The position numbers and the translations under genes were made by a program. The notes beneath the pieces are model-generated. The model did no database searches and had not been told where the DNA came from. It worked only from the letters and a program-made list of their open reading frames with translations. Positions 7,285 through 28,899 of a stretch of 41,875 nucleotides of DNA are shown one piece after another. The stretch covers positions 1 through 41,875 of IMG/VR virus record IMGVR_UViG_3300026541_000012. The stretch is one strand, 5' to 3'. How positions within the stretch are numbered: position 1 is the first letter of the stretch; every line of letters starts with the position of its first letter. This DNA comes from a virus. Lineage: Duplodnaviria > Caudoviricetes.

Positions 7285-7351
7285 TTCAATCATTGGGATA
7301 TTATTCCCGAATGCGTATAATGAGTTAAACTCAAACAATAGATAAATTACA

Positions 7352-7633
7352 ATGCCAGATATAGCAGCATGGTTCGTATGGATTGGCCTTATTCTGATGG
7401 TCGGTGTGTTAGCTTGGGAATGGGGCGCAGATTGGTATGATGAATTTCGCAACGATGATAAAAAGTGGTGGGATTCATTAACCGATGAGGACAAACAGGC
7501 ATTGCAGCAAGAAGTGGACTCACAGGGCAAGCGTCTTGACGAACACGAGAGAAGAATTGATGCACTTGACGACACAGCAATCACGGTAAGTCCTAAAAAT
7601 GACAGCAAGCGAAATCAATCCGCGAGTAAATGA
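7352..7633 (+). CDS. membrane-anchored coiled-coil protein
   Basis: N-terminal TM and RLDEHERRIDAL coiled coil. Confidence 0.55.
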   Translation: MPDIAAWFVWIGLILMVGVLAWEWGADWYDEFRNDDKKWWDSLTDEDKQALQQEVDSQGKRLDEHERRIDALDDTAITVSPKNDSKRNQSASK

Positions 7634-9636: not shown

Positions 9637-9852
9637 TTATTTTAGCGGTCGAAAACATTGGTTTATAAGACCTTGAGATTCCCTAACGCTTAATTTTTCA
9701 CTATAGTTTTTGTAAGTGCCGGATATTATGTTCCTTACTGTGCTTGAGTTTATTCCGGTGAGGTGACCAATTTGTTTGCGGCCCAGACCATCAAAAGATA
9801 ACTCTCGGATCTCGGCAGCAACATCTAATGGAACAGACTGATGAGCACTCAT
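9637..9852 (-). CDS. small HTH DNA-binding protein
   Basis: GLGRKQIGHLTGINSSTVRNII helix-turn-helix pattern. Confidence 0.55.
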   Translation of the reverse strand: MSAHQSVPLDVAAEIRELSFDGLGRKQIGHLTGINSSTVRNIISGTYKNYSEKLSVRESQGLINQCFRPLK

Positions 9853-10409
9853 GAAGTACCCCATGTTTTCATTTGATTACACTCGGTTGCTGTAAACCAG
9901 CCGCCCTTCGTATCAGCCACCCATATTGATCGTTGATCCTCATGGCTGACCTCTGCCCATGCCTCTTTCGCAGCAGACCACATCTCCTCTGCCAGAAAGC
10001 CACGAATAGCTAACAAAGAATCATGATTATTCTCGTTAGCCTCGGTGGTAGCCTGAAACGACGTATAAAGCTCTTTCTCGCGCTGCTGGGTGATGGCTGC
10101 GGCCACTTCGTCGGCAGATGCTATCTCGGTGCCCGCCAGCCCAAAAAAGGCCAGAGCACGCCCTACGGCGCTTGTCTCAGCATTCTCAAGGGCAGATGTC
10201 TCGTTAATTTTGGATGAGCCGCGAAACTCCTCAGCATAACCCGTGGCAATCACGGCTTCCCCATTCATGATAAGGGCTTTCATGATGATCTTTTCGCTAT
10301 CATGAGAGATAAGCTGAGTTTCAATGCCGAGGTTGGGCTCGTCCTCTTTGAACTTGGCAATGCGCTCCGCCACTGTCCAATAATCTTTATTGTGAATTTT
10401 AACCGGCAT
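9849..10409 (-). CDS. putative ssDNA-annealing recombinase (ERF-like)
   Basis: GYAEEFRGSSKINETSALENAETSAVGRALAFFGL motif; typical early-operon position. Confidence 0.6.
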   Translation of the reverse strand: MPVKIHNKDYWTVAERIAKFKEDEPNLGIETQLISHDSEKIIMKALIMNGEAVIATGYAEEFRGSSKINETSALENAETSAVGRALAFFGLAGTEIASADEVAAAITQQREKELYTSFQATTEANENNHDSLLAIRGFLAEEMWSAAKEAWAEVSHEDQRSIWVADTKGGWFTATECNQMKTWGTS

Positions 10410-14622: not shown

Positions 14623-14888
14623 TGATGGTGAGTGAGACACTTGCAAAAATCGGTGATAAATGCTGGGCGTGTCGATATCGATTTAGATCAGGAGATACGG
14701 TCAGGCACGTTCCTATTTATCATGGTTTTGCACCGGCTCATAAGCTTGAACCAAATTGGACTATGTGGTGTTTACGTTGTGCTGATTCTCAAGATTTAAT
14801 ACCAACTGAAAAAGAAAGTTATACATGGGGTAATTGGCCGGAAGGATTTAGAACCATGAGCAAACGTTGGTTTGATTTATGGATATGA
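14623..14888 (+). CDS. hypothetical CxxC-CxxC protein
   Basis: AAGGGG RBS near the ATGs; CWAC...CLRC. Confidence 0.45.
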
Positions 14889-14899
14889 AAAGCACATAC

Positions 14900-15019
14900 T
14901 CAATGAACGAAGCCCCGACCCGTATTGCACGGACCAGGGCTTCAAATCTGGTTGATAGAAAGGTTTGCCGCCTAAACCAGACACACGCATCATATCACAA
15001 GATGTTGTGTCAATGTCAA
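14900..15019 (-). ncRNA. putative short antisense (oop-like) transcription unit
   Basis: Minus strand TTGACA...TGaTATGAT promoter (15019-14989), then hairpins 14947-14981 and 14909-14943, the latter terminator-like. Confidence 0.45.
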
Positions 15020-15039
15020 AGCGTCAACCCAAAATGCTG

Positions 15040-15545
15040 CAACCAGCGGACTCCAGTCTCCGATAGTGACTGTTTTGATGGTGGTCAAGGTCGGCAGCTG
15101 CAGACAATACCGATCAACCTGAGATACCGAGATCGTAAACTCGGCTCTGGTGCCACCTTCAAAGCAGTTACACACTGGCGGCGAATTAACGTCGATAGAG
15201 TCAGTATTAGGAAGGGTGCTGTCCTTGAGGTGGTAATAGACCAAAGAGGCGGTGAGGACCACGGCGGCCTTGAATCGAATAGGGGTGCAGTCGAGTCGGT
15301 AGGCGTAGGGTTGATTTCGATAGAGACCCTTGGAGTCCGGCCACCCTTCACTAATGCTGATTCATATAGTCGGCTGAATCCCGATAGATATGCCTTGTCC
15401 GTGGCAGATATTCAAGAAAGCGTGACACTGTTGAATCAAACCCAGGCACTGTCCACCCCTGACAACCTGGTGGGAGGCGCAGCAATGCGAACCATACCTA
15501 CCGCTAGTAGTGGCCTAAACCTCCCTACAAAGGGGGAAGCTATGC
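15040..15545 (+). ncRNA. large structured, pseudoknotted non-coding RNA candidate
   Basis: 20-bp and 21-bp stems containing G-U pairs, several 7-9-bp long-range pairings and a GNRA hairpin; the overlapping ORF is not protein-like. Confidence 0.7.
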
Positions 15546-15558
15546 TCAGGAGAAAGTC

Positions 15559-15783
15559 ATGACAGCAGAAATACATAAATTACGACCGAAGGAAGAATGC
15601 CAGATAGAGTCATTTTTCCATTGCAGTGAATGTATGAAAGAGATTCCAGATGATGAATCTCCAATGACTTATCAGCATATTCAAGCAGGTTGGACGATTG
15701 AGGGTTTTCAGGTCTGGTGTGTACGTCACGATCTAAACATTATCCACTTGGACTTTGAAGGACAGAAGCACCGATGTATCTAG
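15559..15783 (+). CDS. conserved phage hypothetical protein
   Basis: AGGAG RBS; FFHCSEC...GWT..GFQVWCVRHDLNIIHLDFEG motif. Confidence 0.7.
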   Translation: MTAEIHKLRPKEECQIESFFHCSECMKEIPDDESPMTYQHIQAGWTIEGFQVWCVRHDLNIIHLDFEGQKHRCI

Positions 15784-20213: not shown

Positions 20214-21806
20214 ATGATGGATTATACGGTCGGTGACACGATCAGGAAGTGTTTCACGACACGAGCATTTGCTACTGGTGTTCCGACAGTTTTGGCCGGT
20301 ACTCCGGTTTTGTCCGTTTATGAGGACGGTAGTACTACACAAATCACCGCTGGTGTATCGGTCACGGTAGACCTGGACAGCGTTGTTGGTCTAAATCAAC
20401 TGGTTATTGTAGCGACGGGTGGCAATGGATTTGATTCCGGTAGCGACTATAGCGTGGTCATTACTACTGGAACTGTAGGTGGTGTGTCAGTGGTCGGCGA
20501 GACGGTGTACACGTTTTCGCTTGGCCGATCTGCAGCGTTTACGCGCCTTGGAGCGCCAGCAGGTGCCAGTGTTTCTGTTGATATTGCTGATCTGCCTACG
20601 GTTTCAGAGTTCAATGCACGCACATTAGTTGCTGCGAGTTATTTTGATCCAGCCGCTGATGCTGTTGCCAATGTCACGCTGGTTGCGACCACTACCACGA
20701 ACACTGATATGCGTGGCACCGATTCTGCAGCTCTTGCCTCTGTTGTTGGCACACCGTCTGACTTTGGCTCAGGCACGTCAACGATAGCTGCGAATCTTGA
20801 GGATTTGGCAGATGATGGCACGGCTAGTTATGATCGTTCTACGGACTCACAGCAAGCTATCAGAGACAGGGGTGATGCTGCATGGACTACAGGTTCGGGA
20901 ACAGGACTGACAGCGCTTGCAAGCGGCACCGCACAAGGTGGTTCGTCATCAACGATTCAGCTGGCATCGGGTGAGACCTTTGCCAATAGTGAGCCCAATG
21001 GCAATGTCATCAAAATTACAGCCGGAACCGGAGCCGGACAATCACGTGTGATTCTGAGCTATGTCGGATCGACAGACACTGCAACGGTCTCGCCGAATTG
21101 GACCACTGCACCTGATGCGACCAGCGTTTATGAAATGGTTGATGGCTCAGCGAATATCACCGCTGTTAGCAATGTAGCCGAGGATATAGCAACAGCTACG
21201 TCAATTGCTGCGCTCAATGATGTTGCTGCAACAGACATTGTTTCGGCTGGTGCCATTACGACGCTTTCAGGCGCTATTGTGAATGTGGATCTAGTGGATA
21301 CAACGACCACGAATACGGACATGCGGGGTACGGATTCAGCACTTTTGGCAGCATCAATAAATCTTACAGCTGGTGCTGTGGACAATGTGACACTGGTCGC
21401 TACAACGACTACAAACACGGACATGAGAGGCACTGATGGCGTAGATACAGCCACCATGCGCGGTACAGACAGTGCAGCACTGGCCTCAGTAGCGACCGAA
21501 GCAAGACTTGCTGAGCTGGATGCAGGTAATTTACCGGCAACGACGGACAATATTCTGACAGACACTGGCACGACCTTGCCTGCCCAGATCACGGCAATAT
21601 TTACAACTCAAATGACCGAGGCATATGCCGCTGATGGTGTAGCGCCTACACCCGCACAAGCGTTGTTTATGATTCAGCAGATATTAGGCGATTTTTCAAT
21701 TGCTGGCACTGTGCTCACGGTCAGACAGCTTGATGGATCAACGACCGCGGCTACCTATACGCTGAACGACGCAACGACACCGACAGCACTTACCCGAGCA
21801 ACTTAA
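20214..21806 (+). CDS. Thr/Ala-rich repeat protein, probable fibre/decoration protein
   Basis: Repeats of NV.LV.TTTTNTDMRGTD; ITAGTGAGQSRVI module. Confidence 0.65.
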   Translation: MMDYTVGDTIRKCFTTRAFATGVPTVLAGTPVLSVYEDGSTTQITAGVSVTVDLDSVVGLNQLVIVATGGNGFDSGSDYSVVITTGTVGGVSVVGETVYTFSLGRSAAFTRLGAPAGASVSVDIADLPTVSEFNARTLVAASYFDPAADAVANVTLVATTTTNTDMRGTDSAALASVVGTPSDFGSGTSTIAANLEDLADDGTASYDRSTDSQQAIRDRGDAAWTTGSGTGLTALASGTAQGGSSSTIQLASGETFANSEPNGNVIKITAGTGAGQSRVILSYVGSTDTATVSPNWTTAPDATSVYEMVDGSANITAVSNVAEDIATATSIAALNDVAATDIVSAGAITTLSGAIVNVDLVDTTTTNTDMRGTDSALLAASINLTAGAVDNVTLVATTTTNTDMRGTDGVDTATMRGTDSAALASVATEARLAELDAGNLPATTDNILTDTGTTLPAQITAIFTTQMTEAYAADGVAPTPAQALFMIQQILGDFSIAGTVLTVRQLDGSTTAATYTLNDATTPTALTRAT

Positions 21807-25326: not shown

Positions 25327-26801
25327 ACATAGAGTACGTTTCCAAGCTGCACCCGGTATACACCAAGCCGAAGCGCATCAAGATTGTTGTTGGTGGCCGA
25401 GGTTCAACCAAGTCCACCGGTGTGGCCGATTACGTGGCAGGACAGATAGCTTGTGGTGCATTGTGGTGTTGCGCTCGTGAACACATGAACTCTATTGAGG
25501 AGTCTGTTCACAGAACCATGCTGGATGAGATAGCGAGACTGGAGATTCCAGGCTTTGAGGACACCAAGACCAGCATCAAACATGCATCAGGTGGACGGGC
25601 ATTCTACAAGGGGCTAGCAAGGAACATAACGTCTCTAAAGTCCACGCTGACCGGCGTTGACGGACTATGGATTGAAGAGGGCGAAGATCTCTCAGACAAT
25701 ACATTACGGGTGCTCACTGCTTGTGTGCGCCTTAATGCCACTGATACTCAGAGAGCTATAGCGGGCGAAGACATCAAGCTTCCCGAGATCATTATCACGA
25801 TGAATCGAGGTGCAAGCTCTGGTGCGGTGGCTAAGAAGTGGTTGGCTCGGGCCGAACCTACCCTCCAGAAGTGTGGTTATTATGAGGACGACCTGCTGAT
25901 GGTTGTCGAGATGAATTACACTGACATGCCCACTGAATGGTTCTTGCAGTCAGGTCTTGAGATTGAGCGCCTGGATGATTACGAGGCACTAACGAGGCCA
26001 CAATATGATCATAAGTGGCTAGGGCATTACCTAGACACGGTAGACAATGCGATCATTCCGACGGAGTGGTTCGATGCGGCTATCGATGCACACGTGAAGC
26101 TTGGCTTTAGTCCGAAGGGTGTGAAGGTTGTATCACACGATCCATCCGACAAAGGACCGGACGCTAAAGGGCTGTGCTATCGGCATGGTTCAGTCATTCT
26201 TGATGTACAGGAAAAGATGGGGCTGGATGTGAATGAGGGATGTGACTGGGCCTTGGACTATGCCATTGATGTGCAGACTGATGTGTATATTTGGGACTGT
26301 GACGGGCTTGGTGCTGGCCTGAGAAAACAGACGCTGGACGCTATTGCGGGTAAGAAGATAGAGCACGTTGAGTTTCGTGGTGGCAAGGGAGTGGACAATC
26401 CAAAGCAGACTTATCAAGCGGTCGATAGCCATTCCAATAAGAAGGCCAAGAGCAACGAGGAGACGTTCAAGAACAGACGTGCTCAGTATTACTGGATGTT
26501 ACGTGACAGGTTTTACAACACCTACCTAGCAGTGGTTAAGGGGCAATACATTGATCCAGACGATATGATCAGTCTATCCTCTGATATCAGCAACATGAGT
26601 GCATTGCGGGCCGAGGTGTGTAGAATACCGAGAAGGCCAAACGGCATGGGACTGATTCAAATCATGAGCAAGGAAGAGATGGCACGCCAAAAGCCACCTA
26701 TTGCTAGTCCGAACCAAGCTGATGCACTCATGATGAGTCTTGCTACGCCAGCGCTGAAGAAAGCCGATATGACACTCAGGTTTGCATCCGTTTATGGCTG
26801 A
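25308..26801 (+). CDS. terL: terminase large subunit
   Basis: Walker A GGRGSTKS, Walker B WIEE, nuclease HDPSD and SPNQADAL. Confidence 0.95.
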   Translation: MSARQIDIEYVSKLHPVYTKPKRIKIVVGGRGSTKSTGVADYVAGQIACGALWCCAREHMNSIEESVHRTMLDEIARLEIPGFEDTKTSIKHASGGRAFYKGLARNITSLKSTLTGVDGLWIEEGEDLSDNTLRVLTACVRLNATDTQRAIAGEDIKLPEIIITMNRGASSGAVAKKWLARAEPTLQKCGYYEDDLLMVVEMNYTDMPTEWFLQSGLEIERLDDYEALTRPQYDHKWLGHYLDTVDNAIIPTEWFDAAIDAHVKLGFSPKGVKVVSHDPSDKGPDAKGLCYRHGSVILDVQEKMGLDVNEGCDWALDYAIDVQTDVYIWDCDGLGAGLRKQTLDAIAGKKIEHVEFRGGKGVDNPKQTYQAVDSHSNKKAKSNEETFKNRRAQYYWMLRDRFYNTYLAVVKGQYIDPDDMISLSSDISNMSALRAEVCRIPRRPNGMGLIQIMSKEEMARQKPPIASPNQADALMMSLATPALKKADMTLRFASVYG

Positions 26802-28899
26802 CGAGGACGATATCACTGAGAAGGGCTTTGGTGATCATCGGGCCATACTGCAGCTATTGCGCAAGGCTCAGTCTGTTGAGACAGATGTACGTGAAATCGT
26901 ACGAGAAGTGCATTCCTTCCTCGATGATAAGGACGGTCAGTGGGATTCTCATGCGTCCAAAGCATTTGAAGGTCGACCGCGCTATACGCTGGACAAGTGC
27001 AATGATCTGGTGGATGACATCGCCGGGGCGATGGAGCAGTCAGACTTTGATATCCAGATATTGCCTGCCGGTGGAGATGCGACCAAAGGCTTGGCCAAGA
27101 CCTATGACGGTCTGATTCGCAATATTCAGAACCTATCGAACGCCACCGATATATACGATGCCAGTACCCGCTTTATGGTGCGTGCTGGCATGGATGGCTG
27201 GCGCATTAACCAGCGTTGGGGTGATAACAATACCTTCGACCAGGATTTGTACATCGATACGGTATCTGATTGGGTGGATCGTGTGTGGTTTGATCCTGGT
27301 TCGGTATTGCAGACACGTGAGGACGCAGGTTATGCCTTTGTCTTAACGACGATGATCAAGGCTGATTACGACAGGGACTTTCCTGAAGGTAAGGGCGTGT
27401 CTGTGAGTATTGGCGATCATATCCTGCAAACGGACAGGCAGCCCGAGACGGTAGTGGTGGGTGAGATTCTGTACAAAGTACAGGTCGAGCGACGCATCGT
27501 TGAGCTGACGAATGGCGCTGTGTACGTGGACGATGACAAGTTCCAGACAATCAAGGACGAGCTGGCCAAACAAGGTGCCGAGGTGAAGCGTGAACGACTG
27601 CGCATGATGACCGAGGTGAAGACTCGCATCTTCGATGGCTCAGACTGGCTAACGGATGTGCAGGACACTGTATTCGACCTAATCCCTCTGGTGCCGGAGT
27701 ATGCCAACTGGGGTGTACGTCGGAAAGTCCCGAACTATTGGGGCATTGTCACCAAGAAAATGGATGCACAGCGCATCTACAATTACACCGAATCACGCAA
27801 GGTTGAGGACGGTGCTTTTTCACCCTTGGCCAAGATTCTGGTCACCAAAGAACAGATTGGTGGCAACAAGATAGGCTGGGAACGTCTGAATGTAAGCTCT
27901 GATCCAGCATTGACCTATGAATACGACCCTGAGAATCCCAATGTACCGTTTAAGATCGGTGGTGCTGAGATTAACCCAGGCCTTGAATCGACCAGTCAAT
28001 CAATGCTGCAGAACCTGCAGTCCACGGCCGGTATTGATCAACTACCAGGTCAGACACTTGGATTACAGTCCGGGCTTGCCGTAGAGCTGAAGCAGGACCG
28101 AGGCGATACACGCAATCACAAGTATGTGAAGTCCAAGCAGATCGCTATCTGTCACACCGGCAAGATCCTGATGCGCGCTATTCCAAAGGTCTACGACACT
28201 GAGCGCCAGGTGAGGATTATCAATGAGGACCGCTCGTTTGAGATGGTGCTGCTGAACAAGCGCATTATCGATGAGCAGTCGGGCGAGCCAGTGGAGATAA
28301 TTGACTTGTCCAAAGGCGTATACGATGTCACTTGCGATGTCTCCAAAGCCTTTAAGAATCGTCAGGGTGAGACGGTTAACTCGATGGTGGAGGTGGCAGC
28401 GATTGACCCGACTATTATTGAAGAGGGCCGTGATGTTCTGTACAAAAACATGAATGCACCAGGCTTTGACATCCTGGCAGCACGTGTGCGACAGAAAATG
28501 TTACTATCCGGTCAAATACCTAAAGAGGAAATGACCGACGACGAGAAAGAGTTCCTGAAGGCACAACCAGAGCCTGAACCAGATCCAGTAGCAGTAGCGC
28601 TTGAGCGTGAAGCGGACAATGCGGACGATGAAATACAGATTAAAGCCATCGATGCGGCCCGAAAGGACCGTGAACTGGATGCGAAGATAGAGAACGAGCG
28701 GCGTGATGATGACCGCGCATCAATGCAAGAGGCATTTGATAATATCAAGGTAATGGCGCAGGCATTAAAGGACCAAGCCTTAGCTTACAAGGCATTAGCG
28801 GATGCTAAGGGTATTGAAGGTGTTGATTTACCCGGTGTAGACGATATCATTGCCGGACAGGCGGCTACAGTTAGAGAGTCGCAAGCGGAACAGCCATAG
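26794..28899 (+). CDS. portal protein (P22-like)
   Basis: ~700 aa after TerL; DGQW...GRPRYT and DAQRIYNY motifs; helical C-terminus. Confidence 0.9.
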   Translation: MADEDDITEKGFGDHRAILQLLRKAQSVETDVREIVREVHSFLDDKDGQWDSHASKAFEGRPRYTLDKCNDLVDDIAGAMEQSDFDIQILPAGGDATKGLAKTYDGLIRNIQNLSNATDIYDASTRFMVRAGMDGWRINQRWGDNNTFDQDLYIDTVSDWVDRVWFDPGSVLQTREDAGYAFVLTTMIKADYDRDFPEGKGVSVSIGDHILQTDRQPETVVVGEILYKVQVERRIVELTNGAVYVDDDKFQTIKDELAKQGAEVKRERLRMMTEVKTRIFDGSDWLTDVQDTVFDLIPLVPEYANWGVRRKVPNYWGIVTKKMDAQRIYNYTESRKVEDGAFSPLAKILVTKEQIGGNKIGWERLNVSSDPALTYEYDPENPNVPFKIGGAEINPGLESTSQSMLQNLQSTAGIDQLPGQTLGLQSGLAVELKQDRGDTRNHKYVKSKQIAICHTGKILMRAIPKVYDTERQVRIINEDRSFEMVLLNKRIIDEQSGEPVEIIDLSKGVYDVTCDVSKAFKNRQGETVNSMVEVAAIDPTIIEEGRDVLYKNMNAPGFDILAARVRQKMLLSGQIPKEEMTDDEKEFLKAQPEPEPDPVAVALEREADNADDEIQIKAIDAARKDRELDAKIENERRDDDRASMQEAFDNIKVMAQALKDQALAYKALADAKGIEGVDLPGVDDIIAGQAATVRESQAEQP

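What the first reader, a model, noticed from the sequence alone, without database searches (positions are those of the whole stretch)
15040..15545. ~500-nt multiply pseudoknotted RNA candidate hidden under a spurious ORF
Seen in the sequence: stem 15066-15085/15152-15171 (20 positions, 3 G-U, 1 mismatch) and stem 15198-15218/15342-15363 (13+8 bp, 2 G-U). Crossing long-range pairings: CGGACTCCA 15047-55/TGGAGTCCG 15331-39; CCACGG 15259-64/CCGTGG 15399-404; CTTGAAT 15269-75/ATTCAAG 15410-16; CGGTAGG 15297-303/CCTACCG 15497-503. AGGGGTG 15281-87 is exactly complementary to the 7-nt loop CACCCCT (15454-60) of the hairpin CCAGG..TGTC/GACA..CCTGG, a kissing-type contact. There is also a GNRA hairpin CGCA-GCAA-TGCG (15478-89) and GGGAGG/CCTCCC. 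Deviations from perfect pairing are mostly G-U on the + strand, which argues for RNA structure rather than a DNA palindrome. Inference: a large ncRNA or ribozyme-scale fold, similar in complexity to GOLLD/ROOL-type phage RNAs, though I do not recognise it as a named family. Not all helices need to coexist.
Basis: partly seen in the sequence, partly recalled or inferred. Interest (0 to 1): 0.92.

Follow-up and report, generated by a model that had tools for sequence, protein, structure and literature searches.

The report
Phage RNA-primed replication origin candidate
This folded stretch belongs to a conserved, modular, roughly 640-base non-coding element of uncultured tailed phages, predicted to make a long RNA and a short antisense RNA against its start, and it likely starts phage DNA replication with an RNA primer (as ColE1 plasmids do) in phages where no replication-initiator gene was found.

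Summary
The helices are in the sequence, the 227-aa ORF is not conserved, and no Rfam family matches. The element is longer than reported (promoter about 14872, RNA about 14907-15545) and belongs to a family: 28 other distinct loci, 10 of them checked across the whole 5' block. Predicted anatomy: a sigma70 promoter, two hairpins overlapped by a 70-78-nt two-stem-loop antisense RNA with its own promoter (top antisense site in 11 of 11), exchangeable long-hairpin modules with variable cargo, and a covarying 3' domain whose C-rich loop can pair with a terminal G-tract. The element sits where lambdoid phages carry initiator genes. Four complete or near-complete carriers show no initiator, replicative helicase, primase or integrase, and four others keep only an initiator's C-terminal domain. 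Best reading (0.5): an RNA-primed, antisense-controlled origin that works like ColE1/MRB but shows no sequence homology to them. Main rival (0.25): an antisense-controlled leader for downstream genes. Transcription and priming are untested.

The parts
14872..14900 (+). predicted sigma70 promoter of the long RNA (-35 at 14872-77, 17-nt spacer, -10 at 14895-900)
   Evidence: Top sense site. A top-two sense site lies 120-154 nt upstream of the anchor in 10 of 11 members. The strict scanner did not list it.
14907..15545 (+). predicted long RNA (RNA II-like pre-primer); ends inferred, 3' end not defined
   Evidence: z -3.11 on +; homolog blocks
14909..14943 (-). hairpin 1: terminator-like hairpin with U-rich tail on the - strand
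   Evidence: 12 of 16 pairs with double changes across 10 members, G-U on the - strand
14905..14982 (-). predicted antisense RNA (RNA I-like), about 75 nt, two stem-loops
   Evidence: Two-stem-loop fold in 8 of 8 members, z -3.6 to -5.6, boundaries assumed from the promoter positions
14989..15019 (-). predicted antisense promoter (extended -10 at 14989-94, -35 at 15014-19)
   Evidence: Score 14.2 against 9.1 for the ColE1 RNA I promoter. Top antisense site at -40 to -54 from the anchor in 8 of 8 members and 3 of 3 later members.
15037..15049 (+). anchor hairpin; modules insert after its terminal CGG
15050..15181 (+). module A: small hairpin, long conserved stem 15066-85/15152-71, 65-nt variable cargo
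   Evidence: 8 of 18 pairs with double changes and an invariant U-G in 10 copies. Absent in L157 and in one Logan contig; also free-standing elsewhere in G001 and G013.
15182..15373 (+). module B: small hairpin, long stem 15198-218/15342-63, about 120-nt variable cargo
   Evidence: Arms conserved with other cargo in L010, L011 and Logan contigs
15374..15425 (+). module C: short hairpin unit shared with L157
15434..15545 (+). conserved 3' domain: core hairpin 15442-70 with C-rich loop 15454-60, three-way junction closed by 15472-77/15520-25, terminal G-tract 15531-36 (candidate hybrid-forming/origin end)
   Evidence: 5 of 22 pairs with double changes; loop/G-tract pairing with 5 invariant pairs plus one covarying pair
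14879..15562 (+). 227-aa ORF, judged spurious
   Evidence: No family; other proteins cover only 10-35% of it; frame broken in homologs

Best explanation
The element is likely an RNA-primed, antisense-controlled replication origin of tailed phages that would work like the ColE1 and Vibrio MRB plasmid origins. Shown in the sequence: two facing promoter-like sites about 90 nt apart, a two-hairpin block that folds better on the minus strand, a body that folds better on the plus strand, covarying stems, a 3' domain ending in a G-tract, a position in the early rightward operon, and no recognisable initiator in complete carriers. Inferred steps: (1) host RNA polymerase makes the long RNA; (2) its folded 3' domain and G-tract let it stay hybridised to the template near 15530-15550; (3) RNase H and DNA polymerase I turn the hybrid into a primer and D-loop, and the host helicase is loaded, helped in some phages by a stand-alone initiator C-terminal (DnaT-like) domain; (4) the 75-nt antisense RNA kisses the nascent 5' loops, misfolds the long RNA and limits copy number, and its variable loops set incompatibility between phages; (5) modules A and B are dispensable cargo hairpins exchanged by recombination at the CGG joints.
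For: Facing promoters at fixed spacing: top antisense site in 8 of 8 members and 3 of 3 later ones; chance of such a site in a 15-nt window is about 2-7%. Two-stem-loop antisense RNA of 70-78 nt with heavy covariation. MRB RNA I is 68 nt with two stem-loops over the 5' end of a >=465-nt RNA II (PMC3035462). The strand switch in folding (5' block better on - in 8 of 9, body better on + in 8 of 9) is the same as in ColE1. No initiator, replicative helicase, primase or integrase among scanned ORFs of the window, G001, G003, G005 and G013. Six-frame searches: 0 of 13 records for DnaB_C, HTH_36 and integrase. Stand-alone C-terminal halves of O-like initiators directly after the element (L043, L064) or upstream of it (G004, G019). 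Downstream genes differ between members and several carry their own ribosome-binding sites. No intrinsic terminator at the 3' end in the window.
Against: No transcript, R-loop or replication data. No sequence or structure-model homology to ColE1, pES213, pAsal3, pB1006, a PAGEV-bearing Vibrio plasmid or the Alma origin. The strict promoter scan lists no promoter in the window, and the scoring matrix was recalled. L010, L011 and L055 share one antisense promoter by descent, and L157 and L158 were found with a profile that includes the promoter columns. Many ORFs have no family, only part of each genome's ORFs were scanned, and no matched set of element-free phages was obtained, so an unrecognised initiator is possible. 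Distant carriers of the core hairpin do not fit simply: G007 has its own primase-helicase genes, L066 lies after a nicking-type initiator gene, and L027 follows tRNA genes. No partition gene was recognised. The 3' domain is replaced by unrelated ones in L010, L011, L101 and L158. Long ORFs span the element in several members, which an origin does not need.
Confidence: 0.5

Rival explanations
1. Antisense-controlled leader: the long RNA is the 5' leader of the downstream early genes, and the antisense RNA switches its fold to control their transcription or translation (like P22 sar, lambda oop, pT181 attenuation or IncB pseudoknot activation; these mechanisms are recalled, not from a call).
For: The same facing-promoter anatomy fits. 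The 3' domain has two exclusive folds: the C-rich loop plus a tail can displace the core hairpin (predicted hairpin probability <=0.03 in 8 of 11 members). In the window, L002, L055 and L010 the G-tract is followed by an ATG. The only sub-threshold Rfam hit is sar (E 4.5). In L043 and L064 the next gene is replication-related.
Against: The downstream gene is not conserved, and the ATGs after the G-tract open only tiny ORFs in the window, L002 and L010. No terminator follows. The antisense target holds no ribosome-binding site. This reading leaves the missing and truncated initiators unexplained.
Confidence: 0.25
2. Carrier transcript for small RNAs: the element mainly expresses hairpin modules whose conserved stems are cut (for example by RNase III) to release variable cargo RNAs acting on the host or on rival phages, with the antisense RNA setting the level.
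For: Module A has a sequence-conserved, covarying stem with unrelated cargo. It occurs in 1-2 copies inside the element and also free-standing, in tandem in G013 and twice in G001. One cargo is shared between G001 and L101.
Against: Minimal members (L047, L157) have neither module A nor B yet keep both promoters and the 3' domain. No cargo showed long complementarity to any fetched sequence. This reading can hold together with the origin reading.
Confidence: 0.11
3. The hairpins act as single-stranded DNA (a lagging-strand origin or primosome assembly signal), not as RNA.
For: G-T wobble bias does not separate RNA from ssDNA, as PMC5737381 notes for plasmid motifs. L066 lies after a nicking-type initiator gene.
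Against: Conserved facing promoters and a terminator-like hairpin on the opposite strand. The favoured strand switches within the element.
Confidence: 0.06
4. A free-standing ornate RNA or ribozyme of the GOLLD/ROOL kind.
For: Long, structured and phage-borne; one distant carrier follows tRNA genes, a context reported for GOLLD and ROOL.
Against: No Rfam hit in the window or 17 homolog loci. Crossing pairings are at chance level. The core is only about 110 nt, and the length varies from about 300 to more than 800 nt.
Confidence: 0.05
5. The 227-aa ORF is a real gene and the structure is incidental.
For: The same frame stays open for 147-189 codons upstream of the core in 3 of 24 loci, and long ORFs span several homologs.
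Against: A stop lies within 2 codons upstream of the core in L049, L050 and L025 and inside the core in L030. Anchor-to-core distances fall in two frames (2,2,0,0,2,2 mod 3). Frameshifting indels occur in the closest homolog, and compensatory changes are present.
Confidence: 0.03

Closest known systems
ColE1/pMB1 origin (RNA II pre-primer, RNA I antisense; Rfam RF00106)
   Same: Facing promoters; antisense RNA over the 5' end of a 550-640-nt structured RNA; the same strand switch in folding; no Rep protein. Three short motif likenesses in the same order were seen by eye against the fetched record (5' hairpin, a hairpin about 90 nt before the end, terminal G-tract).
   Different: No profile or covariance-model homology. 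Two rather than three antisense stem-loops. Carried by tailed phages. Exchangeable cargo modules. The motif likenesses are post hoc and were not scored.
MRB (marine RNA-based) Vibrionaceae replicons, with the PAGEV motif RF03037
   Same: About 70-nt two-stem-loop RNA I with its own promoter and terminator over the 5' end of RNA II; members can share only the RNA I block (PMC3035462).
   Different: No PAGEV hit in any member scanned; no homology to pES213 or pTHAF100_c; phage-borne.
Non-RepA RNA-based origins of cluster A mycobacteriophage prophages (Alma, LadyBird)
   Same: A tailed phage with a non-coding transcribed region in place of a Rep gene (PMC7157519).
   Different: Those lie beside parABS, and no antisense pair is described in the sections read. 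No homology to Alma 25500-28000. The element here lies in the early rightward operon of P22-like phages.
P22 sar / lambda oop antisense RNAs
   Same: About 70-77-nt two-hairpin antisense RNA from a facing promoter in a phage early region (recalled); weak sar hit.
   Different: Those target coding or ribosome-binding regions (recalled). Here the target is the non-coding start of a dedicated long RNA, and the hit is far below the gathering score.
GOLLD / ROOL
   Same: Large, structured, phage-associated.
   Different: No Rfam hit; modular and variable; antisense partner present.

Membership tests
ColE1-type replicon | Sequence homology to RNA I / ori profiles | tested here: not met
   RF00106 hits ColE1 but not the window or 17 homolog loci; phage profiles do not hit the ColE1 origin
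ColE1-type replicon | Facing promoters giving a short antisense RNA over the 5' end of a long RNA | tested here: met
   Predicted sites only; ColE1's own two promoters were recovered as a control
ColE1-type replicon | RNA I with three stem-loops, about 108 nt | tested here: not met
   Two stem-loops, 70-78 nt. Vibrionales and Pasteurellales forms also have two (PMC8683028).
ColE1-type replicon | No self-encoded Rep protein | tested here: inconclusive
   None recognised in 4 complete or near-complete carriers and the window, but many ORFs are unassigned and G007 has primase-helicase genes
ColE1-type replicon | Persistent RNA-DNA hybrid, RNase H cut, Pol I priming | not testable with these tools
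   Needs in vitro transcription and priming, or mutant hosts
MRB replicon | About 68-nt two-stem-loop RNA I with terminator | tested here: met
   (predicted)
MRB replicon | Homology to the 110-bp RNA I core or PAGEV | tested here: not met
   only pES213 and pTHAF100_c were compared, because pB1067 and pAK1 were not held
GOLLD / ROOL | Match to the Rfam covariance models | tested here: not met
GOLLD / ROOL | Many conserved, covarying long-range pseudoknots | tested here: not met
   One conserved loop/G-tract pairing (46 of 500 shuffles as high); the others are at chance level
sar / oop antisense RNA | Antisense target overlaps a coding region or ribosome-binding site | tested here: not met
   The target is the first 75 nt after the sense promoter; only the non-conserved ORF overlaps it
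Protein-coding gene | Reading frame conserved in homologs | tested here: not met

The most novel reading that the evidence does not exclude
A clade of P22-like phages has replaced its origin-binding initiator with an RNA-only, antisense-controlled replicon that arose independently of ColE1 and MRB. The primer RNA doubles as a plug-in array: hairpin cassettes with conserved stems and variable cargo are swapped at a fixed joint and released as small RNAs, and leftover initiator C-terminal domains load the host helicase onto the RNA-opened origin.
Probability: 0.2. Interest if true: 0.88.

Novelty: new variant of a known kind. Interest (0 to 1): 0.72.

Why it matters
If right, it explains how phages of about 40 kb with no recognisable replication genes start DNA synthesis. 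It would add a further lineage of RNA-primed replicons beside ColE1, MRB and the mycobacteriophage origins, and give an evolutionary intermediate (initiators reduced to their helicase-recruiting half). Naturally minimal (about 300 nt) and expanded (more than 800 nt) versions with different antisense loops make the primer-folding mechanism directly testable and could supply mutually compatible origins for marine bacteria. Even under the rival readings, it is a structured RNA family with exchangeable cargo cassettes that the searches here did not find described.

Tried and rejected
No Rfam match at gathering score in the window or 17 homolog loci; no tRNA or tmRNA. blastn against cultured phages and plasmids gave no credible hit. 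Pattern scans with only chance hits besides G001: 4 of 5 chance; G001 only; none; 19 of 19 chance; 20 of 21 chance; 2 of 4 chance. Of the 52 loci, one was G001 again, 21 were dropped as coding-sequence chance matches and 30 were kept. Because those patterns fixed the core hairpin's pairs, that hairpin's invariance is no evidence of structure. The first pseudoknot count had the register off by one and was redone. Sequencing runs: no RNA holder listed; the Logan contigs cover only blocks of the element and say nothing on expression. Considered from recall and dropped for lack of a model match or of the defining topology: group I and II introns, HDV-like and pistol ribozymes, integron attC sites, c4/CI-type immunity RNAs, T-box, SRP Alu domain. 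The idea that cargos are antisense to the element's own 3' domain failed. A matched control of element-free relatives failed: of 13 further coat-protein relatives, 7 were fetched and only 2 reached this operon, both with the element. A pairwise score test of members against ColE1 RNA II was not run, so the three motif likenesses remain unscored. In earlier scan notes, place and sequence look-ups were blank.

Full report
CONTEXT. The window is a P22-like podophage contig (G000, 63% complete by CheckV) with terminase, portal, coat and head-closure genes. The finding lies in the early rightward operon, between a cro-like regulator (11706) and the nin-like region. This is where lambdoid and P22-like phages normally carry their initiator and helicase genes (established knowledge, recalled). 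None of 52 window ORFs scanned with PHROGs or 38 with Pfam is a replication initiator, helicase or primase.

OBSERVATION. The named helices exist. The plus strand folds better than shuffles (z -2.49) and the minus strand does not. The count of short helices is ordinary, though (26 against 22.4+-5.2), so the list of pseudoknots needed homologs. Rfam has no family for the window or for 17 homolog loci.

HOMOLOGS. A translated search found one relative, L002. It shares the 3' 120 nt at 89% with frameshifting indels, and a 5' block starting near 14900. Pattern scans and coat-protein relatives gave more. Of 52 loci from the core-hairpin patterns, 1 was G001 again, 21 were dropped as coding-sequence chance matches and 30 were kept (22 distinct, model scores). 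With L002, L010, L011, L101, L157 and L158 this makes 28 distinct loci besides the window. About a dozen of them share only the core hairpin and are weaker members. Contigs of eight marine runs cover the same blocks with other sequence between them.

THE ORF. The frame is open for 147-189 codons upstream of the core in 3 of 24 loci. It stops within 2 codons upstream in 3 and inside the core in 1, and anchor-to-core distances fall in two frames. Other proteins match 10-35% of it. I judge it spurious. That long ORFs span the element in several members is not explained.

ANATOMY. (a) 5' block. With a simple sigma70 matrix (frequencies recalled), which recovers both ColE1 promoters as top sites, the best antisense site in a 390-nt region lies 40-54 nt before the anchor hairpin in 8 of 8 members. 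A top-two sense site lies 120-145 nt before it in 7 of 8. Three later members repeat both. L101 was found by the anchor alone; L157 and L158 were found with a profile that includes these columns. Three members share one antisense promoter by descent. The strict scanner found no promoter in the window. The predicted antisense RNA is 70-78 nt with two stem-loops and a U-rich tail in 8 of 8 (z -3.6 to -5.6). Its terminator-like hairpin has double changes at 12 of 16 pairs, with wobble pairs on the minus strand. The 5' block folds better on the minus strand in 8 of 9 members and the body on the plus strand in 8 of 9, as in ColE1.
(b) Modules. L157 runs from the anchor straight into module C, so the window equals that backbone plus modules A (15050-15181) and B (15182-15373), each ending in the same CGG. 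A Logan contig skips module A. Module A's stem covaries (8 of 18 pairs, 10 copies) around unrelated cargo of about 58-125 nt. It moves between three positions in the element and also stands alone in G001 and G013. In L055 the same slot holds an HNH-like coding stretch (read by eye).
(c) 3' domain. Across 10 members, 5 of 22 pairs change on both sides, including three pair types at one position of the 15472-77/15520-25 helix. The C-rich loop pairs with the terminal G-tract: 5 invariant pairs and a sixth kept in 6 of 10 with four pair types, which is weak on its own (46 of 500 shuffles). A tail after the G-tract can displace the core hairpin, fully complementary in 4 of 11 members, which suggests a co-transcriptional switch. 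L010, L011, L101 and L158 carry other 3' ends.

GENE CONTENT. G001 and G003 (direct terminal repeats), G005 (99%, core hairpin only) and G013 (100%) show no initiator, replicative helicase, primase or integrase among the ORFs scanned: 45 of 70, 43 of 71, 42 of 64 and 39 of 68, with mostly virion genes left out. Six-frame searches of 13 records found 0 DnaB_C, 0 HTH_36 and 0 integrase, and one phrog_270 match, C-terminal only. Four carriers encode a stand-alone C-terminal part of an O-like initiator. It lies directly downstream in L043 and L064, and upstream in G004 (weak DnaT-domain match, below cut-off) and G019. The G019 protein matches replication protein O-like genes of enterobacterial phages. 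Against this: G007, a weak member, has its own primase-helicase genes; many ORFs are unassigned; and no element-free control set was obtained.

MECHANISM. ColE1 has no initiator. Its RNA II forms a persistent hybrid, RNase H and Pol I make primer and D-loop, and RNA I pairing with the 5' end prevents this (PMC5043065, passages; PMC12966454, passages). MRB replicons do the same with a 68-nt two-stem-loop RNA I and show no sequence similarity to ColE1 RNA I (PMC3035462, results and discussion parts 2-4). The element matches this layout point by point and sits where the missing initiator should be, so I commit to an RNA-primed origin at 0.5. All biochemical steps are inferred. With no integrase, copy control would make most sense for a plasmid-like prophage state; no partition gene was recognised. 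The leader/attenuator rival (0.25) fits the same promoters but lacks a conserved target gene or terminator.

MEMBERSHIP AND NOVELTY. Profiles and a covariance model from the phage elements do not hit five RNA-primed plasmid origins or the Alma origin region, so it is not filed as a ColE1 or MRB member; it is predicted to work like them. Three short likenesses to ColE1 RNA II in the right order are post hoc and unscored. RNA-based phage origins are known from parABS mycobacteriophages (PMC7157519: abstract and sections 7, 10, 15). Six literature searches listed no paper on this family. PMC8683028 (passages and supplement rows) covers plasmids; PMC5737381 (passages) describes ARRPOF, GEBRO and PAGEV; of bioRxiv 10.64898/2026.09.22.753630 I saw only the abstract and outline. 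The PMC10690425 supplement gave no hit in 6 files, but files 1, 2 and 4 were not searched and may hold parts of the motif. Earlier scan notes report ColE1-like layouts in other phages; these are unchecked leads.

VERDICT. A real, conserved, modular sense/antisense RNA element; a new variant of a known kind; interest 0.72.

Noticed in passing
L040:6821-6963 and 7302-7444 (G001, - strand); L132:13970-14270 (G013): Free-standing copies of module A between genes, away from the element: two near-identical copies in G001 whose cargo resembles a cargo inside the L101 element, and two tandem copies with different cargo in G013. Possibly an independent small-RNA cassette.
   Followed up: partly
L055:450-900; genes right after the element in L010 and L011: HNH-like coding sequence inside the module slot of L055, and GIY-YIG/homing-endonuclease-like genes directly downstream in L010 and L011; homing nucleases may help move modules.
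   Followed up: partly
L043:511-861 (-), L064:935-1489, L073:2729-3184, L158:19205-19600 (-), L159:107-526: Stand-alone C-terminal halves of O-like initiators from at least three different PHROG families.
   Followed up: partly
L027:2300-2600: The core hairpin lies about 40 nt after a pair of tRNA genes in another phage, followed by an unrelated structured stretch.
   Followed up: no
L066:3850-4500 (-), Tsukamurella contig: Core hairpin and G-tract in an element with a nicking-type initiator (phrog_9381) and an Erf-like gene; the only cellular-genome context with replication genes.
   Followed up: partly
window 9849-10409 (-): Gene shared with G003 (phrog_11717); a relative is annotated Mgm101-like, so likely a single-strand annealing recombinase.
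   Followed up: partly
L010, L011, L055, L060, L029, L031 (across the element): Long open frames of 155-290 codons span the element in several members although their sequences are not conserved; unexplained.
   Followed up: partly
window 20214-21806: 530-aa protein with internal repeats placed before the terminase genes; no Pfam or PHROG family.
   Followed up: no
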